A model generated the notes under the pieces. It saw nothing but the letters and a program-made list of their open reading frames with translations. It did not search any database and had not been told where the DNA came from. The translations under genes and the position numbers were made by a program. 64,000 nt of DNA from Pecten maximus (lineage: Eukaryota). The stretch is taken from assembly GCF_902652985.1 (NCBI RefSeq), contig NC_047025.1, positions 16,864,001 through 16,928,000 of the forward strand, in the 5' to 3' direction. Shown here in pieces: positions 1 to 42,125 of the stretch. The stretch's first letter is position 1, and each line of letters begins with the position of its first letter.

Positions 1-886
1 TTAGTATTGTGTCAATGGGGAAATGCCGAGCAAATGTAAATATATGATCATAACCCCTGAAGTATTGAGGACAGTCTGATCAGGGAATGTTCAACCCCTA
101 CCCCAAGTGTTTTGTGTTTCTTAGGAAGCTGAGATATTATGGGCCATCCTGTGCTGTTACAGTTGTGTCTTTGGGAAAGACAAATTACCCTGTAATTGCT
201 CTAGACAACATACAAAAGGACTCTCAATTTTTTCTCTGTGAGGTAGCCACTAGCTACTACAACAGGGTAATATGCACAGCAAACAAATGTGATATATTCT
301 TTTACCTTGTGCTATATTGTGGATAACTTTTAAAGTGTGTTAATGTTTGTTTAATCTTGCAGAATTGGTACTGATGCAGAAATTACATGACTGGTACAAC
401 ATAAAATATAGTTTATTTACAGACTTTTTACTCATATTTCTGTGTAAAAGGAAAGGGAAAATTGCAATGACCAGACAGAGACTCAAAACCCACGACCAAT
501 TAACTTAAGATTAACACTCTAACCATTGGAGTTACATACATTAGAGTTACGATACCCATGGTAAATGGGGTAGGGAATACACCCGTTCAGAAATGAGGGA
601 AAGCCATCTCTGCTGAGATTACTACTTATTACTGTATCTATGTCATGCTTGCATGTTGGTAAAACTCTTTTATGAAAATCTTTAAGGAAATCCTGGCCAG
701 CAATTAATACAGAGAGAAAACATATATTTAGGGTCAAAATATGAAAATTCACTACCACAAAAAAATTACCCAATAACCCAATAATCTTATATGGTGATCA
801 TGCAGCTCCGAGATCATATGATAGCAATTATACCTCACTTCAAATGATCACAGACATTTCTAAGGAAGACAAGTAATGACTGACAG

Positions 887-914
887 CAGAGACATACATG
901 TATATATGTCTCTG
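887..914. mobile_element. 28-bp head-to-head TIR remnant (putative excision footprint)
   Basis: CAGAGACATACATGTATATATGTCTCTG flanked by the 7-bp direct repeat CTGACAG (880-886, 915-921). Confidence 0.65.
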
Positions 915-2199
915 CTGACAGATACTGTACAACTGTCACCTGATGAAATTGAAGTATTTAAAAATATAACATCAGGGTCAACATTTCCAATAAAAAGTTT
1001 TACAAACAATATTTAAATGATATAGGTTAGGTAAAGCATTAAGCACCAAATTATACAAATTCACACAACTAATTAAGGCGGTATCCTTGGATATATAAAG
1101 TCTGGAATGAGCAAGTTTGGTGTGACTGCTCCCTCATTTGACAGAGTATTTATCATCAAGTATTATAATCAATTATAAACAGTTAAATCTCTTGCTTACA
1201 ATCTACTGTATGCTTAATGAGTTTGAACACAAATATAAAACCACACTTGTCTCCCAATAACATTATATATCTTTTTATAATAACATGCAAAGTAATAATA
1301 ATTTTACTACATGTATTTCATTGATACATGATTACCTCTGTCAGTACATTGTCAGATACCCAAGGTGGGTCACATTACACTAGCTATATAGGCTACACTT
1401 GTGATAAGTGTAGGGTATGGTTGTCCACACTGACTGTGTGTATCTGACAATGCATCAGTAAAAATACTCTTATCTTCATCAAGGAATAAGCCCATGCTTG
1501 CTATCATGCCCCCTTCCCCCTATCAACCAACCAACTAACTCAAAAGTAAGCTAGAAGTTGGTTCGCCTAGTGAATGATAATTACAGTAAATGTGTATTAC
1601 AATGTGTAAAATATTTCAGTTTCCAGTAAATGCATAAAAATGCCCAACTTCACTAATCATTAACTGACAAGCATTTTAATAGATTAAAACAATCTGGATA
1701 TTCTGGAATTTCTGATGATTCTTTTGTTTTATTTGTTAGTTTAGTCTATATAACTTCTACACAATATTTCCTTGATAACCATCTGACATTTATATGTGGC
1801 CCAGTATTGACTAGTTATCTGACAGGAACACATCATCAATTATTACAATATAACACACAATATATAAAATACATATCACATGAAATATGCTGAAATGATT
1901 AACAACAGTGATATATATTCTCATTGGCTATAAGCACGGTCATGTGGAAGTAAATATTTTGAGATATTGACTGATATTTTTATTTTTAGAAACATCAAGT
2001 CAACATTGCATTTATGACGTTATAATTATTGTGATGTCACGATGGTTGATGGATGTCAAAATGTAAATTCAAGATAAATATTTAATGTAATTCCACCTCT
2101 TGCAAACAAGGTTCATATCTGCCGGTAATATAGAAATTAAGGACTTTTGATATGGTTAATATGGTGGTACACTGACATGGTAGAATCTAAAATATTAAC

Positions 2200-6355: not shown

Positions 6356-9300
6356 TCAGAAGACACGGAGCATTACATACTCCTTTAAGATGGGAGGTAG
6401 AGGTAGACGTGTGATGGAACCACTTATACTACGTCCTAAACAAAGCTCCTTCAGATGTTTTCGTAATTTGAAACGGCACAACGCCTTCAAGTCTGGAACA
6501 CCCTTAGGGACCTGTGGTCTGAGGTCAATGATATCTTGCCAGAGAACTTTTAAATCTGACCTTCTAACGTCTCTGGATGACAAGGGGAGACAATCATACA
6601 ACAATGTTAACAGTAAGTCGTTGTCTCGACTGTTAAGCAACCGACACCACAATTCCTTATTTTCAGAATGAGGCTGTTCAGTAATGCATCCATGTTGTAC
6701 CAGAACTTGACATATATTGAAGTAATGCTGCTCTGCTGCAAGCTCCAGAGGATCCTGGAAAGTTACTTTACATAGAAGGTTTCCTGTAGAGTATAAAAAC
6801 TTGACATGCCTAGCATTCATGAAAGCACCATGCTTTAGGAGGAATTCAACAAGCTGTACATTTCCATGTATAATGGCCATGTGTAAAACAGTTTCACCTG
6901 ACCGACTGGCTGCATTAATGTCACTTCCAAAGTTAATCAACTGCTGATGAATTTCTATTTTGTTTGTAAAAAATCCAGGAGTTGTACGTTCTTTCACCTC
7001 AAGAGCACTGGGATCAGCTCCCCACTTCAGCAGAATCTGTAACAAAACAAGTAACTTGTATACCTGTTAAATATATTACCAATGTTCCAGGTCATACTCT
7101 CATGGTCTGCTTCTCTCAGCATTAGATCTACTCTTTAATTAATAGGACATTAAATTACTCTGACTGTTGATAATTTTACATAAGGAATTAGTTTGATACA
7201 CTGATTATAATTTACTCTGACTGTTGATCATTTTATATTAGGAATTAGTATGATACACTGATTATGCATTATGTTCATATCACTGACATTAACTGAAGGT
7301 CAAAGGATCTTTAATTTTTTTTTTTTTTTGGCATTAAAACCAGTTTGAATCTCAATACCAATACTGCACATTTTACATGATTATGCCCAGAGTTGTGTAT
7401 TAAAGTAGGTATTAAGATAAGATTCACATCTTGTTGTGATTATATTCATAAACAGTAAACATGGTATACCAGCTGGGAGACAGTTCGCAAACAAGACAAA
7501 GGGCCATTAACTGGCTCACCTGTTTCCCCAATTGGGCCCCTCCATCGAAAACTATCCAGTGGTATACGACAACTCCAAATACCGTATGGAGAATCACAGA
7601 AATATTTCAGACAAAATTTAACATTTTAAAATTAATAGGTACCTTTACAATTTCCAAGTTTTCTTTAGAACAGGCATCATGTAAAAGAGAGTATCCAGAC
7701 TCTGGGATGAAACTGTTGATGTCACACCCAGACTCAAGAAGGAAAGTCACCATAGCAACGTAGTTATTGGAGACAGCATAACTAATGGCCGACTTCCTGT
7801 TGGTCAAAAGGAACATAAAAAATACAGTTAAGATGTTTGCGCAAAGATTTTTTTTTAAGTTTATGTACATCAAAATGTCACATTGTTAACAAAACTTTTA
7901 TCAACACTCCTACAAACAGAACAGAGATTTGTATCGTGGTCATCTGTTGACATTTAATTATTATATTCTTAACAGCCCATGAACACAGAAAATGCATTTA
8001 GGGCCAATTATTAGTAAATGAAAATGTTGTAAAAGACGAATATCAACACATTCTGACATACCCTATCTTAAACAAGCATACTGATATAAAAAATATCAAC
8101 ACATTCTGACATACCCTTATATGCTTATATATCTTAAACAAGCATACCGGGTATTGTTGTTGCAATACATGTCCCTACTGGCCTCCACTGAAAATAGTAA
8201 GTGAACTTGACCTTGACCCAAAATCACTAAAACTCTATTTGTCAGAGATATTATGGTTCTTTATCATTGTATGAAATTTGATGTATATCAGGGCATTTTT
8301 TGTGGCCGATTTGGGGCCGAATTTCGGCCCCATTCCCCACGGCAAAATTGGATATTTTTCCCAATCCGACAAGTTAAAATTCCCAATCGAATGATCTATA
8401 AAAAAATTATGTCTTTAAAAATCCAGATGGTGCCGTCCCGTCTTCGTTTTATTGGTTATTCTGGCCTGAGAAAGGGAGATAATGCTCTAGAGTCTAAATA
8501 AGCCTAGCATAGATCAATATTTGTGTCTACTAGCTTGTTATTTTTACCATTATGTCCATTTTTCCCAATTTACCTGTTGCCGGGCATTTTTTCCAAATCC
8601 CAAAGCCATAGGCCTCATTCCCAAAGTAGTGAAAAAAAGCCCTGTATATGTACATGTATATCACAGAAACTGACACCAATCTTATACTTACCCATAATCA
8701 TCGACTCGATCTTTTTGGCAGTTATGACTTAGAAGGAGCTTAACAATGTCGACAGAGTTTTGAATGACAGCCTGACTGATTGGAGACAGCCTCAGATAAA
8801 ATGGAGGAATTTTGGCTTGTTGGTCGACATCAGAACCATTGTTGATTAGCAGTTTGCAGATGTCAAGATTTTTCTGTAATATAAAAAATAACTGATAATG
8901 TTGTACCAAAGTAAGCTAGCTAGTTTAAGGGCTTGAGAATTTTGGCTAAGGGAAAATTAATGTTGCTTATAAAAACATGTACAAAGTATTTGAAATATTT
9001 TGAACTTTGTGAAATCAATCTGAAAAATCATGAGGTAAATATAATCAAGTTTTCAAAATCCACCAAAATCATGTTTTATATCGAAAATATAACATGGAAC
9101 CAAATCTCTTCAGTTTGTGTCATACACCTGCTTTGTTGAGCCAACAAGACAAAACAAATAACTGAAGGTGCATGTATGCCATGGCCATTCTATCTTATAT
9201 GGGTATTGAGAAGAAGATTTTTGAAATTTCAGTCAATTTGACCCTTTTTAGCCCCACCCATCAGCCCCTGGGGTTCAGTCAGGGCCAACATGTGCATACC

Positions 9301-12300: not shown

Positions 12301-15232
12301 TAATTTTCTATTTTTAGTAACATTGACCCTGACATTTGACCTTTGGATCTGAAAAGTATTCTTAAACAAGCACTTGTTGTAAGGAAGATCTGCATTAAGT
12401 TTGAGTTTGATCAGCCCAAGGGAACTTGAGTTATTGCACAGAAACAAATTTTCTATTTTCTGAACCTTGTTGAATCTCCCCACTCAGGTGATCAAGGTAG
12501 GGGGCTCAGAATGGCTTTGATTAGAGTCTATTGTCAAATTTTCTTGGTTCGTCTTGTCCCTAGTGAAATGTCTTAGGTGATTTAGGGGAAGCAACTCAGT
12601 CTCCGTGTCTGAGTGTGACGAGACGTTAGGTCAGGGCTAACTACCTGCTTGGTTGACCTGAGCTTTTGAACAGGCACCTTAAGGGGAACTTCAAATGGAA
12701 TGGAGTTAAAAGGGAGTACCATGTTATGGTACAAGGTACGACTCTTACCTCCTGAACCTTCATGTGACACCTCATACATAGAATTATCACTGTTGGGGAT
12801 ATTAATCACCAGACAGGGTTCCTGTTTCCACTCATCAGCTAGCTTGTTCTTTCCCTCCAAACAGGTACCTTTCTGATAAGGACCTGGTCTCAAACTTAGA
12901 ATCTCGAACCTTCAAGTCATACTATACTGTGTTCTGTTGAGCATTCCTGTTAGCCTCATTCTGAGCAGCTTTATAAGCTATATCCATCCTATTACAGAGT
13001 TTTCCAACATAGGAGCTCGGATTAACTGCACCCTGCTGACCAGTGTCAGTTCCTTACTAAGAGCCTATCAATAATCTGGGGTGCCCACCGATAACCTTGG
13101 GTGCCACCGAAACAAAAGAAAGTGTCTGTGTGAAGAATACATCATGGAATCCTTTTGGGTTGCATTGTAGGCCTCCAATCCTTTTTCTGGGAATCCTGGG
13201 TAGCAAGCATACCTAGGAGTACGTGTTTTATTGAACCTCTCCACTGAACCATTTCTCATTCGACATTGGATGGTACATTGTATCAGAGACATATATAGAG
13301 AGATAAGTAACATCGCTATTTTCCCGTACAAGTGGTAGCTCCCTTTATTTGTGACCACTCAAGCATATCCCTTATCGAGAGCGTCTTGTTCCCTATCAAA
13401 CACACGCGAGCACAGGTAAATTGGGCTTTGCGCATGTGTGTATCGATGTACTGGAACTTATTCGACATGTTCTGGTTAATCCGCCATTACGTCAGACCAA
13501 AACATCGTCAATTTTAAATACACACAAAAAGCACATCGTTTTATTTAGGCCACTACAAAAGTTACTTCATTATCCAAAAACTATCATAATTATGGGATAT
13601 AGTCTTACTGATCATGCACACTGTTGTCATTAATCCATATTTTCGAAAATCCATTGGGTCCTATTAGACGTCTTCCTAGTTTTGTAATTAAGCCGCCATT
13701 ACATCAGACCAAAACATCGTCAATTTTAAACACACACAAAAAGCACATCGATTTATTTAGGCCACTACAAAAGTTGCTACATTATCCAAAAACTATCATA
13801 CTTATGGGATATGGTCTTGTTTATCATGCACATTGTTGTCATTTATCCGTAGGGACTTTTCGAAAATTGGAGATTCACGCCGATCTTCCCTGTGGTGTGC
13901 TTGACTTTCATACTCAAAATACAAACACTTTGACAGCAAATTGTGATATATTTCATATTGATAACACTTCTGCACTTTGATATTAATAAAATTAAAGCAC
14001 ATCATTGGATCTTGGTGATGATTTCAAATAGAAATTATCGATAATTATGTGTCTGGTTTTCAAGTTTTCTCCAATATGGCGTCAGGAGAAGACTGAACAG
14101 AGTGACCGCAAAGGATTGTGGGAAGGTCAGGGGCCACCACGTAGACATAAGGGCAAATAGAGAGTAGCCAATCTCTCTCTATATGTCTCTGATTGTATGG
14201 AGTTTTTCTAGTTTAACTCCAGCAACTTTGCACAGCTGTTTGATAATCTTGCTTTCAAAGTTACAGCCCTGATCATTATGGAGCATTTCTGGGAAACTAT
14301 AGTACATAGTATACATATATTGGCTTTCTGGTTTTTACAGTGTTTCAGAGACGACTTAACAGGAATGTTATAGCTGCTATAATTCAGGATTCTTATTTTC
14401 TAGTCATTTATATGTGTTGAAGTTCTATGTAACCATACATGGATTACATGCAGTTCACTGCCATATTTCACTACCATATTTCACTCTTACCATATTTCCC
14501 TGCCATAATTCACTGCCATATTTCACTCTGCCATATTTCACTGCCATATTTCAATCATTTTAGAGATTTTATGTATGGCAAGCTCAAGTGTTTCCCTTTC
14601 TCTTTTTTGACAAATGACACTTTGGTAGAAGTTGAGTAATAAATCAACTTTTTCCTTTGTTAGAACTGGCCTTTCAACCTTATTGTGATTAAAGTTTGTT
14701 TTGTTTTAATCAGTAATTTCCTGTTTCAGTGTGGATTTACAGTCTAGCATAATTTCCAATCAATTAAATATAATTAAATGATTTATTGTTTTATTAGCCA
14801 GAGCCCAGATTGTAGTTAACTTAAGTGAGGACTCTCTCCTCTTTTCAAGAGAGTTCTCAATTACAAGAATAAGACATGATCACCAAGAACTACCTTTTTA
14901 GTAAACACCCACTCTGTCTATCATCTGATTACGTGTGTACTAATAATAGTTTACACATCCACGAACATACAAACCTTGATAACAGCCGAGCACAAAGCTG
15001 TTTCATGCTTATCGTTTGCTCCATTGACAACACTTTGTATATCTGCCTTATTTTGTTTTATGACACCCAGATAGTTCCGCACTCGCTCTAGCTCGTCAGA
15101 TTTAACAGCCTCAATTAAAGAAATAACATCTTTGTCAACGTTGACAACATTGTCCGATCGACACGAAAAGTCAATCACAGGATACAGTTTCGGTCGAATT
15201 TCACAGTCAACAACTTTGTAGAGAAGTGGCAT
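6356..15232 (-). CDS. Ankyrin repeat and SOCS box-containing (ASB-like) protein, 4 coding exons, about 424 aa
   Basis: Exons (minus strand): 15232-14975, 8873-8692, 7796-7643, 7036-6356. All introns are GT-AG and phases are consistent. The spliced product has ankyrin repeats (HETALCSAVIK|KNLDICKLLINNGSDVD; GYSLLHDACSKENLEIVK|ILLKWGAD; GETVLHMAIIHGNVQLVEFLLKHGA) and a C-terminal SOCS box (VPDLKALCRFKLRKHL...ITRLPLPPILKEYV*). Confidence 0.9.
8289..8644. mobile_element. hAT-like MITE with 5-bp TSD
   Basis: Termini CAGGGCATTTTTT / AAAAAAAGCCCTG, flanked by TATAT on both sides, with subterminal TTCCC repeats. Confidence 0.7.
9143..9799 (+). mobile_element. Helentron-associated / pearl-like element
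   Basis: Diverged internal repeats (GAAGAAGATTTTTGAA...TTTGACCCTTTTT), a GGACGAC microsatellite, and a 3' end TAGCTCACTTGAGACTTCGTCTCA...GGTGACCTAAAAA with a hairpin. Confidence 0.7.
10767..11539. mobile_element. MITE with TA TSD (Tc1/mariner-pogo type)
   Basis: TIRs CTGTATAGCGGTAAATTTTAGCGG / CCGCTAAAATTTCCCGCTATACGG, TA flanks, and subterminal AAATTTTGGCG repeats. Confidence 0.82.
12560..14340 (-). pseudogene. Degenerate gypsy integrase relic in ASB intron 1, interrupted by a DNA transposon at 13284-14191
   Basis: Minus-strand fragments FPEMLHNDQGCNFESKIIKQLCKVAG (about 14200-14300), NGSVERFN, AYNAT..., and GKNKLADEWKQEP...RTLYHNMVLP, with frameshifts. Confidence 0.8.
13284..14191. mobile_element. 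Non-autonomous DNA transposon with 7-bp TSD (P-superfamily-like)
   Basis: TIRs CAGAGACATATATAGAGAGAT / ATCTCTCTCTATATGTCTCTG. Perfect TSD ATTGTAT at 13277-13283 and 14192-14198. It has an internal direct duplication of about 150 bp (13480-13635 vs 13693-13850) and splits an integrase relic. Confidence 0.8.
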
Positions 15233-37166: not shown

Positions 37167-40100
37167 ATGGCAACTGGATTACCAACATTCCCGCAATTTT
37201 CTGTACACGAAAATGCTGTCGACATCAGATGGAAAAAATGGGTGAAGAGGTTGGATAACCTATTGGTTGGTATGAACATCAAAGACAAAGACAGGAAACG
37301 TGCATTGTTCTTACATTTTGCTGGAGATGAAGTCAATGACATTTTCGATACTCTACCCGACACAGGCAACGATTATAAAACTGCTGTTGAAAGATTAACA
37401 GAGTACTTTGCGCCGAAGAAAAACACAGAATTTGAAGTTTCAAATTTCGCCAAACAAGACAAATGTCCAGTGAGAATATTGACAGTTTCCACACCAGACT
37501 GAGACAACTAGGACAAAACTGTGAATTTGTTGATTGTGACAAGGAGATCAAATCACAAATAATTCAGGGATGCAGTTCAACCAGACTTCGGAGAAGAGCG
37601 CTACAGGAGGACATGGATCTTCATAAGTTAATAGCGATGGCCCGAAGTATGGAGATTTCACACCTACAAGCTCAGGAAATTGAAAAAACTGATCGTGCCT
37701 ACCCACAGAGAGAAGACACGAACGCTGTAAAAAGAAAATCAAATGGCGGTTGGAGTAAGCAGAACCGAACACACTCAAACAAGCCATCACAGGTATGTCG
37801 AAACTGTGGAGGAAAGTTTCCTCACGAGAAGCCCTGTCCAGCAAAAGGGAAAGTATGTCACTCTTGTCAAAAGTACAATCATTTCTCGAAAGTATGCAAA
37901 TCGAAAAAACTTGTTAAACAAGTAGAAGACAAATCAAGTCAACCACGCAATGAAAGTTCAACAGACGAGTATCTTTATGGTATACAAACAATCAACCAGG
38001 TTAAATCAAAACAACCTAAAACTGCGGTAACTGTTGATGGATTGACTCTTAATATACTTGTTGACACAGGATCAAGCATCAATGTCATGGAGGAAACAAG
38101 CTACAACAAAATCAGAAATAAGAAAAAGCTACAGAAAGCATCAACAAAACTGTTTGCGTATGGCTCAACAAAACCTCTACCTGTAATTGGAACTTTTGTT
38201 GCAAGCATAGAAAGTAAACAGAGACTTGTCACTGCGCTATTTTATGTAGTAAAGGGATGCAACGGAAACTTACTGAGCTATGAAACGTCAGTAAATCTTC
38301 AACTCATACCCGTTATCTCTGCTGTATCGGAACAGAGAGAAGAGAAGCTATGCGAAAAATACGCATCAATCTTCGAGGGTATCGGGAAATTGGAAAACAC
38401 CCAGGTAGATATACACATTGATGACAATGTTAAACCTGTGGCTCAACCACACAGACGTATTCCTTTTCATGTTAGGAAACATGTAGAAGCTGAGCTAGAC
38501 AGACTTGAAAAATTGGACATCATTGAGAAAGTGACAGGACCAACACCTTGGGTATCCCCGATCGTCGTGGTTCCTAAACCCAGAAGTCCAGGAGAAATTC
38601 GGATATGTGTAGACATGAGACTACCCAATAAGGCTATACAAAGAGAAAGACACACCACACCGACTATCGATGACTTGATAGTAGATTTAAATGGTGCAAA
38701 AATGTTCTCAAAACTAGACCTCAGAGCAGGATATCATCAACTAGAGTTGACAGAAAAGGCCAGAAATATCACAACATTCTCAACACACGTTGGACTTCGA
38801 AGATACAAACGATTGAGTTTTGGTGTATCGTCAGCAGCAGAAATTTTCCAAGATACGTTACGGACATGTCTGGAAGATCTCAAAGGTGTAAGAAATATCA
38901 GCGATGATATCATTGTTTTTGGCAGGACCCAAGAAGAACATCACAGAAATCTCGAAGCAGTATTTCAAAGGTTGAAGGAAAAGAACTTAACACTTAACAA
39001 AAACAAGTGCGAGTTCAACAAGAAAAGGCTAGAATTTTATGGGTACATATTTGGAGCGGAAGGAATATCTGCTGATCCAAAAAAGGTTGAATCAATCAAG
39101 AACGCTGCTACTCCAACAAACATATCAGAGGTACGAAGCTTCCTAGGTATGACAAACTACGTTGGACGATTCATACCCGCCTATTCTACTACAACAGAAC
39201 CGCTAAGGAGATTGACAAAAAGTACAACGCCATGGAAATGGACAGACAGTCAGCAAAAAGCGTTTGAAAAGCTCAAACAAGACCTGACTAGTGACACTGT
39301 GATGTCGTATTTCGACCAGACGAAGCTGACTAATCTTGTAGTGGATGCAAGTCCCGTTGGATTAGGTGCTATCTTATCTCAAGAAGGAAAGATTATCGCA
39401 TACGCAAGCAGAGCTTTGACAGATGTTGAACAGCGATACTCACAGACAGAGAGAGCGGCACTAGCTATTGTGTGGAGTTGTGAACATTTTCATCTGTATC
39501 TCTATGGACATACATTTACACTCATCAGTGACCATAAACCACTAGAGTGCATTTTTAATAATCCAAAATCAAAACCACCAGCAAGGATCGAGAGATGGCG
39601 ATTAAGACTTCAACAATATGATTTCAATGTTTTATACAAACCAGGCAAATCCAATGCAGCCGACTATATGTCAAGACACCCAACAAGTTTACAAAGCGGT
39701 AAACATTCTGAAATAGCGGAAAGCTATATACGCTATATCGCAACAAACGCAGTACCAAAGGCAATGACACTCTACGAAATATGTATGGCTACTAAGCAGG
39801 ACATGGAAATTCAAATGATCATACAATCTGTCAAATCGGGAGTATGGAAAAAACATTACAACAGCAAAACCCTGGAAACATTGTCAAGAGTACGCAGTAA
39901 CCTGACAGTTGTTGCTACAAAGGATGGTGAAGTGTTATTATGTGAAAACAAACTGGTTATTCCAAACACTCTACATCAACGAGCAATAGAACTGGCCCAT
40001 GAAGGACATCAGGGAATTGTGAAAACAAAACAATTACTGCGGGAAAAAGTTTGGTTCCCCGGTATAGACAAAAAAGTTCAAGATATGTGTAAGGGATGTA

Positions 40101-41041
40101 TTCCGTGCCTTGCATCAGTACCTAAGACAACTACTGAACCATTACGGACGACAGAACTTCCAGAAGCTCCGTGGACCAGAGTAAGCATGGATTTTTGTGG
40201 ACCATTCCCGTCAGGAACATACTTAATGGTACTTGTGGATGATTACTCAAGGTATCCAGTGGTTGAGATACTATCAAACGTGTCAGCACGTACTGTCATA
40301 CCAGTACTAGACAAAATCTTTGCAATGTTTGGAATTCCACAAAAGCTCAAAACGGACAATGGACCGCCGTTTAATGGAAACGAATTTCAGAAATTTGCGG
40401 AGGATTTAGGTTTCAAACATCAAAAGGTTACACCATTATGGCCTCAAGCAAATGGAGAAGTAGAGCGCTTCATGAGGACTCTAGGAAAGTCGATTCGCGC
40501 TGCTCACGCTGAAAATCGTGTGTGGAAACAAGAACTATTCCGTTTCTTACGTAATTATCGAGCAACACCTCACACTACAACAGGTGTATCGCCCTCAGAA
40601 TTACTGATTGGACGAAACATTCGCATCAAGATACCGAGCATTGAAGTCAAAACTAGCGATGACTCCATTGTGAGAGAAACTGACAACAAAAGAAAACGAA
40701 AGATGAAGGAGAAATCAGACAGCACAAGGCATGCTACTGAATCAAAGCTAAAAGTAGGTGACACCGTTCTTGTTAAACAGAACAAACATGACAAGCTGAC
40801 AACCCCATTTGATCCAAAACCATACCGGATAAAATCTAAGAAAGGATCCATGGTGACCGCTGAAAGAAACAATCATCAAATTACCAGAAATTCTTCATTT
40901 TTCAAACGAGTTATGACACCACCATCGGAACAATGCCCCGAGGAGGAGGAAGAAAGAAACATGGATGATAAACCAGGCATCAGGAGGTCAGCACGACGAA
41001 AGAAACCACCGAATCTATGGAAAGATTTTGTGTATTCATGA
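37167..41041 (+). CDS. Gag-Pol polyprotein of the LTR element (frameshifted at about 37440)
   Basis: ORFs 37167-37502 and 37463-41041 overlap. Motifs: twin zinc-knuckle region CRNC...CHSCQKYNHFSKVC, protease LVDTGS, RT ISDD and KLDLRAGYHQ, RNase H DASPVG...DHKPL, integrase HEGHQG...CKGC, DFCGP, TDNGPPF, NGEVER. Confidence 0.92.
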
Positions 41042-42090: not shown

Positions 42091-42125
42091 CAGAGACGTA
42101 TATATACCAAGAATACAAGTCTCTG
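42091..42125. mobile_element. 35-bp head-to-head TIR remnant (putative excision footprint)
   Basis: CAGAGAC...GTCTCTG flanked by GCTTACC / CCTTACC (6/7 match). Confidence 0.55.

What the first reader, a model, noticed from the sequence alone, without database searches (positions are those of the whole stretch)
880..921. P-element-style excision scar: 28 bp of head-to-head TIR ends between a perfect 7-bp duplication
Seen: CTGACAG-[CAGAGACATACATG TATATATGTCTCTG]-CTGACAG. The reverse complement of the right 14 nt (CAGAGACATATATA) equals the first 14 nt of the 908-bp element at 13284, which also has a 7-bp TSD. Established: Drosophila P transposase makes 17-nt staggered cuts, so end-joined donor sites typically keep about 15-17 bp of each TIR between the TSDs. 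P-superfamily elements start with CA and make 7-8 bp TSDs. Inference: this is a fossil excision footprint suggesting the same long-overhang chemistry in a mollusc-like genome.
Basis: partly seen in the sequence, partly recalled or inferred. Interest (0 to 1): 0.7.

Follow-up and report, generated by a model that had tools for sequence, protein, structure and literature searches.

The report
P-transposon scars reveal variable cut depth
This 28-base palindrome is one of about two thousand tiny leftovers of P-type jumping genes in this genome, most likely scars left when the elements cut themselves out, and their lengths suggest that the enzyme likely cuts 16 to 19 bases inside each end at a short DNA motif rather than at a fixed distance like the fruit fly's 17.

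Summary
The 28-bp insert between CTGACAG repeats is one of 814 genome-wide matches of 20-50 bp, against 27 of 51-81 bp; sister families add 1,354. Of 50 sampled, 48 have a 7-bp duplication with at most one mismatch.

The partner is a young 13.7-kb P-superfamily element (28-bp TIR, 7-bp TSD). Its transposase has the RNase H and GTP-binding domains; no THAP domain was found. Its C-terminal domain is predicted to sit in a separate, facing gene.

Scar arms stop well inside the TIR, at 16, 17, 18 or 19 nt depending on the TIR version, always at A^GRGAYT. Two versions of one family that differ by 2 bp differ by 2 nt in cap. Best reading: end-joined excision scars (0.9), with the inner nick set by sequence rather than a fixed ruler (0.65; depth uncertain by 1 nt). 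No locus with both a filled and a scar allele was found.

This scan noted such scars and split P transposases before in other genomes. New here is the within-family 2-bp comparison.

The parts
880..886 (+). Left copy of the 7-bp target-site duplication (CTGACAG)
887..896 (+). Left scar arm: first 10 nt of the family-A TIR
   Evidence: prefix match to the autonomous TIR
897..898 (.). Junction bases; the whole insert is one substitution from a recurrent 13+16 join with 1-nt overlap
899..914 (-). Right scar arm: first 16 nt of the 'CA' (A1) TIR version, as in the autonomous element
915..921 (+). Right copy of the 7-bp target-site duplication
13284..14191 (+). 908-bp non-autonomous family-A element (MITE) with TIR versions lacking the CA; internal-deletion relative of the 13.7-kb P element; TSD ATTGTAT at 13277-13283 and 14192-14198
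42091..42125 (.). Second scar (35 bp) from a sister family with unlike ends; 7-bp duplication with one mismatch

Best explanation
The 28-bp insert is likely the end-joined scar left when a family-A P-superfamily transposon was excised by its transposase, which likely cuts one strand at the element's tip and the other strand 16-19 bases inside the inverted repeat, at a point likely set by the sequence A^GRGAYT. SHOWN: the scar class and its size peak; its 7-bp duplications; paralogous empty sites; an autonomous P-type partner with the same TIR and TSD length; arm lengths capped at 18 (A1), 16 (A2), 19 (B) and 17 (C) although the TIRs run on. INFERRED from the fly P element: each chromosome end keeps a 3' single-stranded tail of TIR; the tails are trimmed, anneal through 1-6-nt microhomologies (TA tracts, ACA) or templated inserts, and are ligated, probably by polymerase-theta-type end joining. 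INFERRED here: the inner nick is placed from inside the TIR, so TIR bases lost or gained between tip and motif change the tail length. One way this could work is pairing of the freed 5' end with the tip of the transferred strand, with a looped-out spacer taking up the difference. Odds: scar of P-type excision 0.9; nick set by sequence 0.65; nick 3' of the A rather than 5' of it with an added A, 0.65.
For: Size peak: 814 matches at 20-50 bp against 27 at 51-81 bp, of which only 3 rows (2 distinct) hold element-internal sequence. TSD: 39 of 50 perfect, 9 with one mismatch, 2 with two. Empty paralogous sites for 17 of 144 scars in the fetched DNA. Partner G000:C5:3888865-3902535: 13,671 bp, 28-bp perfect TIR, TSD ATTCACT, 965-aa stop-free frame with PF21787/PF21788/PF21789; only PDB sequence hit is the fly P transposase 6p5a_A, E 1e-13. 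Caps: A1 arms >=17 nt 288, >=19 nt 17 (5 of them templated restarts of the tip); A2 arms >=16 nt 151, >=17 nt 11. B arms >=18 nt 169; of the 100 listed, 90 reach 19, 4 reach 20, none reaches 22, and 8 loci are perfect 19+19 joins. C arms: 33 of the 96 sampled B/C arms reach 17-18, 18 only inside a CTAG junction, and 7 genome-wide reach 19. A2 elements group apart from the A1 clade in the tree and make up 31 of 100 listed intact ends, so A2 ends did move. Junction types match fly P junctions in PMC2895639 Tables 1 and 3. The fly structure has a looped-out transferred strand pairing with the 5' part of the non-transferred strand (PMC7776569 section 8).
Against: No locus was found with both a filled and a scar allele. 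The window scar was present in contigs of 3 of the 4 runs laid, with no empty or filled form. Cut depth is read from repaired DNA, not from cleavage. Every cap ends in A, and extra As are common after the cap in B and C scars, so all four values could be 1 nt shorter (17, 15, 18, 16), which would put A1 at the fly's 17. A2-looking arms could partly arise from A1 tails by 2-nt slippage. Tip-to-inner pairing is best at the cap for B (6 of 6) and C (3 Watson-Crick + 3 wobble), but in family A a register 2 nt earlier scores 5 Watson-Crick pairs against 4 + 1 wobble at the cap, and A1 arms are bimodal (11 at 16 nt, 12 at 18 nt). No autonomous A2 element was looked for, so a second transposase is not excluded. 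A small tail of longer arms exists (28 rows).
Confidence: 0.8

Rival explanations
1. Excision scars, but with one fixed stagger per transposase (about 17-18 nt as in flies). The 16-nt class comes from slippage or trimming during repair, or from an extinct A2-specific enzyme, and the motif coincidence reflects TIR ancestry.
For: TIR copies often differ by 2-nt steps. Extra As blur the last base. Families B and C have their own transposases, 54% identical to A.
Against: A2 ends are 31 of 100 listed intact ends and group together, yet only 11 A2 arms pass 16 nt against 151 that reach it. Single scars carry an 18-nt A1 arm with a 15-16-nt A2 arm (L140, L145).
Confidence: 0.25
2. The inserts are extreme internal deletions made by abortive gap repair or by hairpin collapse between the TIRs, without a long staggered cut.
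For: A few true internal-deletion products exist (2 distinct; one 43-bp case), and MITEs of 0.6-2 kb are common.
Against: These routes predict arms running through the 23-28-bp TIR and a continuous length spread. Arms instead fall more than tenfold within one or two bases of the cap, and 51-81-bp products are 30 times rarer.
Confidence: 0.07
3. The inserts are a family of mobile micro-MITEs that insert as 20-46-bp units and make their own 7-bp duplications.
For: Some inserts recur exactly: 4 of 50 share one 28-mer, and the B 27-mer and 38-mer recur. Empty paralogous sites fit any insertion.
Against: 42 of 50 sampled inserts are distinct. The recurrent forms are those that microhomology joining of the tails predicts. 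They lack the inner motif and all subterminal repeats.
Confidence: 0.05
4. A non-P superfamily with 7-bp duplications (for example hAT) made these marks.
For: None found.
Against: The elements that carry these termini encode P-type domains. That hAT footprints alter flanking DNA and keep no long TIR is recalled, not from a call.
Confidence: 0.02

Closest known systems
Drosophila melanogaster P element and its end-joined donor sites (PMC7776569: passages and section 8 read; PMC2895639: passages with Tables 1 and 3; PDB 6P5A/6PE2)
   Same: CA...TG ends; RNase H domain split by a GTP-binding insertion; donor junctions that keep TIR tails between intact TSDs, with short microhomologies and templated inserts; the tail ends in A in both.
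   Different: TSD 7 bp against 8; inferred tails 16-19 nt against 17; 10-14-kb elements; no THAP domain found; transposase ends about 65 aa after the catalytic Glu, with the C-terminal domain predicted in a separate convergent gene; thousands of natural scars rather than laboratory products.
Zebrafish Pdre elements and THAP9 (PMC10983969, passages read)
   Same: P-superfamily transposase outside insects, CA-starting TIRs, internally deleted copies.
   Different: Pdre2 has 13-bp TIRs and 8-bp TSDs; the passages I saw give no stagger length for it, and its excision left larger flanking deletions in cells.

Membership tests
P superfamily of DNA transposons | DDE RNase H transposase with a GTP-binding insertion domain | tested here: met
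   PF21787 E 9e-25, PF21788 E 8e-20, PF21789 E 4e-6; phmmer hit 6p5a_A, E 1e-13, with the motifs around the fly's second Asp, the Glu and the GTP residues aligned (residue matching by motif)
P superfamily of DNA transposons | TIRs starting CA and ending TG (rule recalled; fly and zebrafish ends seen) | tested here: met
   28-bp (A) and 25-bp (B) perfect TIRs starting CAGAGAC
P superfamily of DNA transposons | 7-8-bp target-site duplication (7 bp recalled; 8 bp) | tested here: met
   7 bp at both full elements, at MITEs and at 48 of 50 family-A scars with at most one mismatch
P superfamily of DNA transposons | Long staggered donor cleavage leaving TIR tails on the flanks (17 nt in flies) | tested here: inconclusive
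P superfamily of DNA transposons | GTP cofactor requirement | not testable with these tools
   Needs biochemistry
Fly P element / THAP9 type (one-piece THAP transposase) | N-terminal THAP domain | tested here: not met
   No THAP hit in the A, B or C frames or in 15 short upstream frames at E<=1 or 0.5; exons under 35 aa and the first 1.1 kb of the element were not scanned
Fly P element / THAP9 type (one-piece THAP transposase) | C-terminal domain fused to the catalytic chain | tested here: not met
   A, B and C frames end at an aligned position; the convergent gene's model has 6p5a_B as top hit of 48,161 chains (Z 8.2, rmsd 3.3, 118 of 118 aligned; next row Z 7.5)
hAT superfamily | hAT transposase domains in the autonomous partner | tested here: not met
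   Pfam scans of both long frames of the partner gave no hAT family

The most novel reading that the evidence does not exclude
P-type transposases do not measure a fixed 17-nt stagger. They nick the second strand at an internal near-copy of their own tip (A^GRGAYT), so one enzyme cuts 16 or 18 nt deep on natural TIR variants and sister enzymes 17 or 19. Here this is done by a THAP-less, two-gene transposase whose loop-binding C-terminal domain is a separate protein, and thousands of genomic scars record the cleavage geometry without any experiment.
Probability: 0.45. Interest if true: 0.72.

Novelty: new variant of a known kind. Interest (0 to 1): 0.55.

Why it matters
The review I read states that the order and mechanism of P-element strand cleavage are not known, and treats the 17-nt stagger as a hallmark (PMC7776569 section 8). 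Natural TIR variants whose scars differ in depth by exactly the TIR indel give ready-made substrates to test what places the inner nick, and near-identical autonomous copies supply an enzyme. Strict scar matches (814) outnumber intact family-A ends (633, about half as many elements) by more than two to one per element. Excision scars are thus a large record of past transposition and of germline end joining in this animal.

Tried and rejected
Local hopping: not supported. On contig C1, 44 scars against 43 intact ends gave no significant excess within 1, 10, 50 or 100 kb (p 0.06-1.0). Flanks of MITEs held 4 scars in 90 kb and flanks of scars 6 in 171 kb.

Alleles: contigs of X4, X5 and X12 span the scar and carry it; X9 did not cover it. 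Contigs drop rare variants, so this shows presence only. A second allele test at a MITE-plus-scar locus gave no data, so filled/scar polymorphism stays open.

A minor second nick 3 nt further in: 6 of 11 long A2 arms, 3 of 12 long A1 arms and 2 of 7 long C arms. A hint only.

Second gene: no PDB sequence hit, no Foldseek hit, Pfam PF12596 only below cut-off (E 0.05-0.19 in 5 of 8 proteins), no fused form among the longer candidates scored (weak evidence). No complex prediction was sent.

Literature: searches listed no paper on genome-wide natural P scars, on a variable stagger or on split P transposases. The library lacks most subscription papers and Repbase. Beall and Rio 1997, Ghanim 2019, Majumdar and Rio 2015 and one further PMC id tried for superfamily definitions were not held. 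No supplements were read.

Full report
OBSERVATION. The window reads CTGACAG (880-886), a 28-bp insert (887-914) and CTGACAG (915-921). The 908-bp element at 13284-14191 has matching ends and a 7-bp duplication. A 10-bp inverted pair starting CA inside a perfect 7-bp repeat occurs once in the window and in 0 of 100 shuffles. Against the autonomous TIR the insert is 10 + 2 + 16 nt; against the 13284 element the long arm matches only 14 and 12 nt. The donor therefore had the 'CA' TIR version (A1), which this MITE lacks.

A GENOME-WIDE CLASS. The pattern CAGAGACATA-N(0-30)-TATGTCTCTG has 814 matches in G000 and the reversed control none; a few matches are nested or duplicated on small contigs. 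With a gap of 31-61 there are 27, mostly double scars or templated expansions; 3 rows (2 distinct) hold element-internal sequence. I fetched all 49 distinct loci listed first, and one more scar lay in a flank. Of these 50, 39 have a perfect 7-bp duplication, 9 one mismatch and 2 two; lengths run from 20 to 46 bp with modes at 28 and 30; 42 are distinct sequences. A degenerate pattern for sister families gives 1,354 more, control 1. Of the 50 listed I dropped 2 as duplicates with identical flanks; of the other 48, 32 have a perfect 7-bp duplication, 8 one mismatch, 1 a perfect 8-bp duplication and 7 no good one. For 17 of 144 scars in the fetched DNA a paralogous copy of the flank shows the empty site with one target copy; none showed a filled paralog. 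Intact family-A ends number 633.

THE PARTNER. PF21787 gave 44 matches; I fetched 20 regions and extended 10 groups. G000:C5:3888865-3902535 is a 13,671-bp element with a 28-bp perfect TIR and TSD ATTCACT. A copy on C13 is 99.7% identical over 10 kb and one on C17 98-99% over 6.7 kb. The window MITE matches both of its ends at 83-90%. Its 965-aa frame carries the RNase H, GTP-binding and C-terminal RNase H profiles, and its only PDB sequence hit is the fly P transposase. Family B (C4:52489941-52500252, 25-bp TIR, 7-bp TSD) and family C (one end seen in L122, a related intact end in L144) are 54% identical to A in protein. No THAP domain was found.

TWO-GENE LAYOUT. The A, B and C frames stop at an aligned point about 65 aa after the catalytic Glu. 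A convergent frame, 34-36% identical across four families, has a model of pLDDT 64 whose best match among 48,161 chains is the fly transposase C-terminal domain 6p5a_B (Z 8.2, rmsd 3.3, 118 of 118 aligned). Z 8.2 alone is modest for a helical protein and the next row scores 7.5, but the weak PF12596 hits point to the same domain. A profile search found 1,460 relatives; the best 150 are 86-480 aa long. A split transposase is predicted; binding was not tested. A source names the identical protein as from a scallop, with relatives in mussels.

WHERE THE ARMS STOP. Family A has two main TIR versions, A1 (…TATACAGAGAGAT) and A2 (…TATAGAGAGAT), 69 and 31 of the first 100 intact ends (counted by eye). 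In a tree of 30 MITE copies a 16-row clade (100/99) holds only A1-type ends, while A2-bearing copies lie outside it, 8 of them in one group (95/91). A1 arms: 288 reach 17 nt; of 100 listed, 78 have the TIR's A at 18 (often shared with the other arm) and 3 a G at 19; genome-wide 17 reach 19, 5 of them templated restarts. A2 arms: 151 reach 16 and 11 reach 17. B arms: 169 reach 18; of 100 listed, 90 reach 19, 4 reach 20, none 22. C arms: 20 at 17 and 13 at 18 in the sample, the latter all inside a CTAG junction that 17+17 with a TA overlap explains; 7 reach 19 genome-wide. All four caps fall at A^G(A/G)GA(T/C)T.

MECHANISM. In flies the transposase leaves 17-nt 3' tails of TIR on the donor ends, which are joined by microhomology, bluntly or with templated inserts (PMC2895639, passages and Tables 1 and 3). 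The scars here show the same junction types. I infer tails of 18, 16, 19 and 17 nt, with the inner nick placed by sequence. In the fly structure the transferred strand loops out over the C-terminal domain and pairs with the 5' part of the non-transferred strand, with nucleotides -14 to -18 disordered (PMC7776569 section 8); such a loop could absorb length changes. The six bases after the cap can pair with the tip in B (6 of 6) and C (3 + 3 wobble). In A a register 2 nt earlier pairs as well or better, and A1 arms peak at both 16 and 18, so pairing alone is not established.

AGAINST. No filled-versus-scar allele pair was found. The window scar is shared by contigs of three runs from three studies, one or more of which may be related to the assembly's source. 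Extra As after the cap leave all depths uncertain by 1 nt, although most long A2 arms end in G with no added A. Repair slippage could make some A2-like arms. Local hopping was not supported.

KNOWN AND NEW. It works like the fly P element, and the partner meets the tested P-superfamily features but not the one-piece THAP architecture. Seven paper searches listed no report of natural genome-wide P scars, variable stagger or split P transposases; key primary papers were not held. Earlier notes of this scan describe such scars with 18-20-nt or 19-nt cuts, and two-gene P elements, in other genomes. They are unchecked AI notes, read after my own motif result (note) and fold result, and are not counted as support. 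None of the notes listed for this genome concerns these scars.

VERDICT. A real P-type excision scar, new variant of a known kind, interest 0.55.

Noticed in passing
L076:7670-8812 (-), L078:1077-2198 (+), L080:8268-9365 (-), L081:8024-9118 (-); upstream C2H2 frame L114:1870-2217 (-): Convergent second gene in P families A-D, predicted to be the transposase C-terminal domain with a C2H2 finger further upstream; the main transposase lacks that domain and THAP.
   Followed up: partly
L089:7262-8338 (-), L092:302-3442 (+), L086:7008-9626 (-), L094, L095: More distant P-type transposases (about 20% identical to A) lie beside Pif1 helicase and PHD-finger frames; L089/L090 copies are 99% identical over about 11 kb with about 600-bp inverted ends.
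   Followed up: no
window 42091-42125; L160:1933 and 2984; L164:1825; L166:1611: Scars with unlike left and right arms point to a further P family with asymmetric ends; its autonomous element was not sought.
   Followed up: no
L165:1501, L086:246, L095:8959, L125:6075: Some C-type scars have 8-bp rather than 7-bp duplications.
   Followed up: no
L020:1501-2550: MITE followed by a short stretch and a further TIR end flanked by the left TSD: a possible aberrant or hybrid-end transposition.
   Followed up: no
L023:1487, L133:1501, L114 near C5:3906861-3906875: Tandem duplication of the first 14 nt of the TIR at element ends and in scars.
   Followed up: no
window 58300-61420 (+): Exons of a thioester-protein (A-macroglobulin TED domain) gene in which the thioester position reads GAGEM; the usual GCGEQ motif is recalled, not from a call.
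   Followed up: no
window 6356-7066 (-): Exon with ankyrin repeats and a SOCS box, ending about 5.4 kb from the scar.
   Followed up: no
window 37436-41041 (+): Stop-free 1,201-aa LTR-retrotransposon pol frame (protease, RT, RNase H, integrase order).
   Followed up: no
scar target sites: The 7-bp targets show a palindromic preference, roughly (G/A)TTWWA(T/C), in 88 scars.
   Followed up: partly
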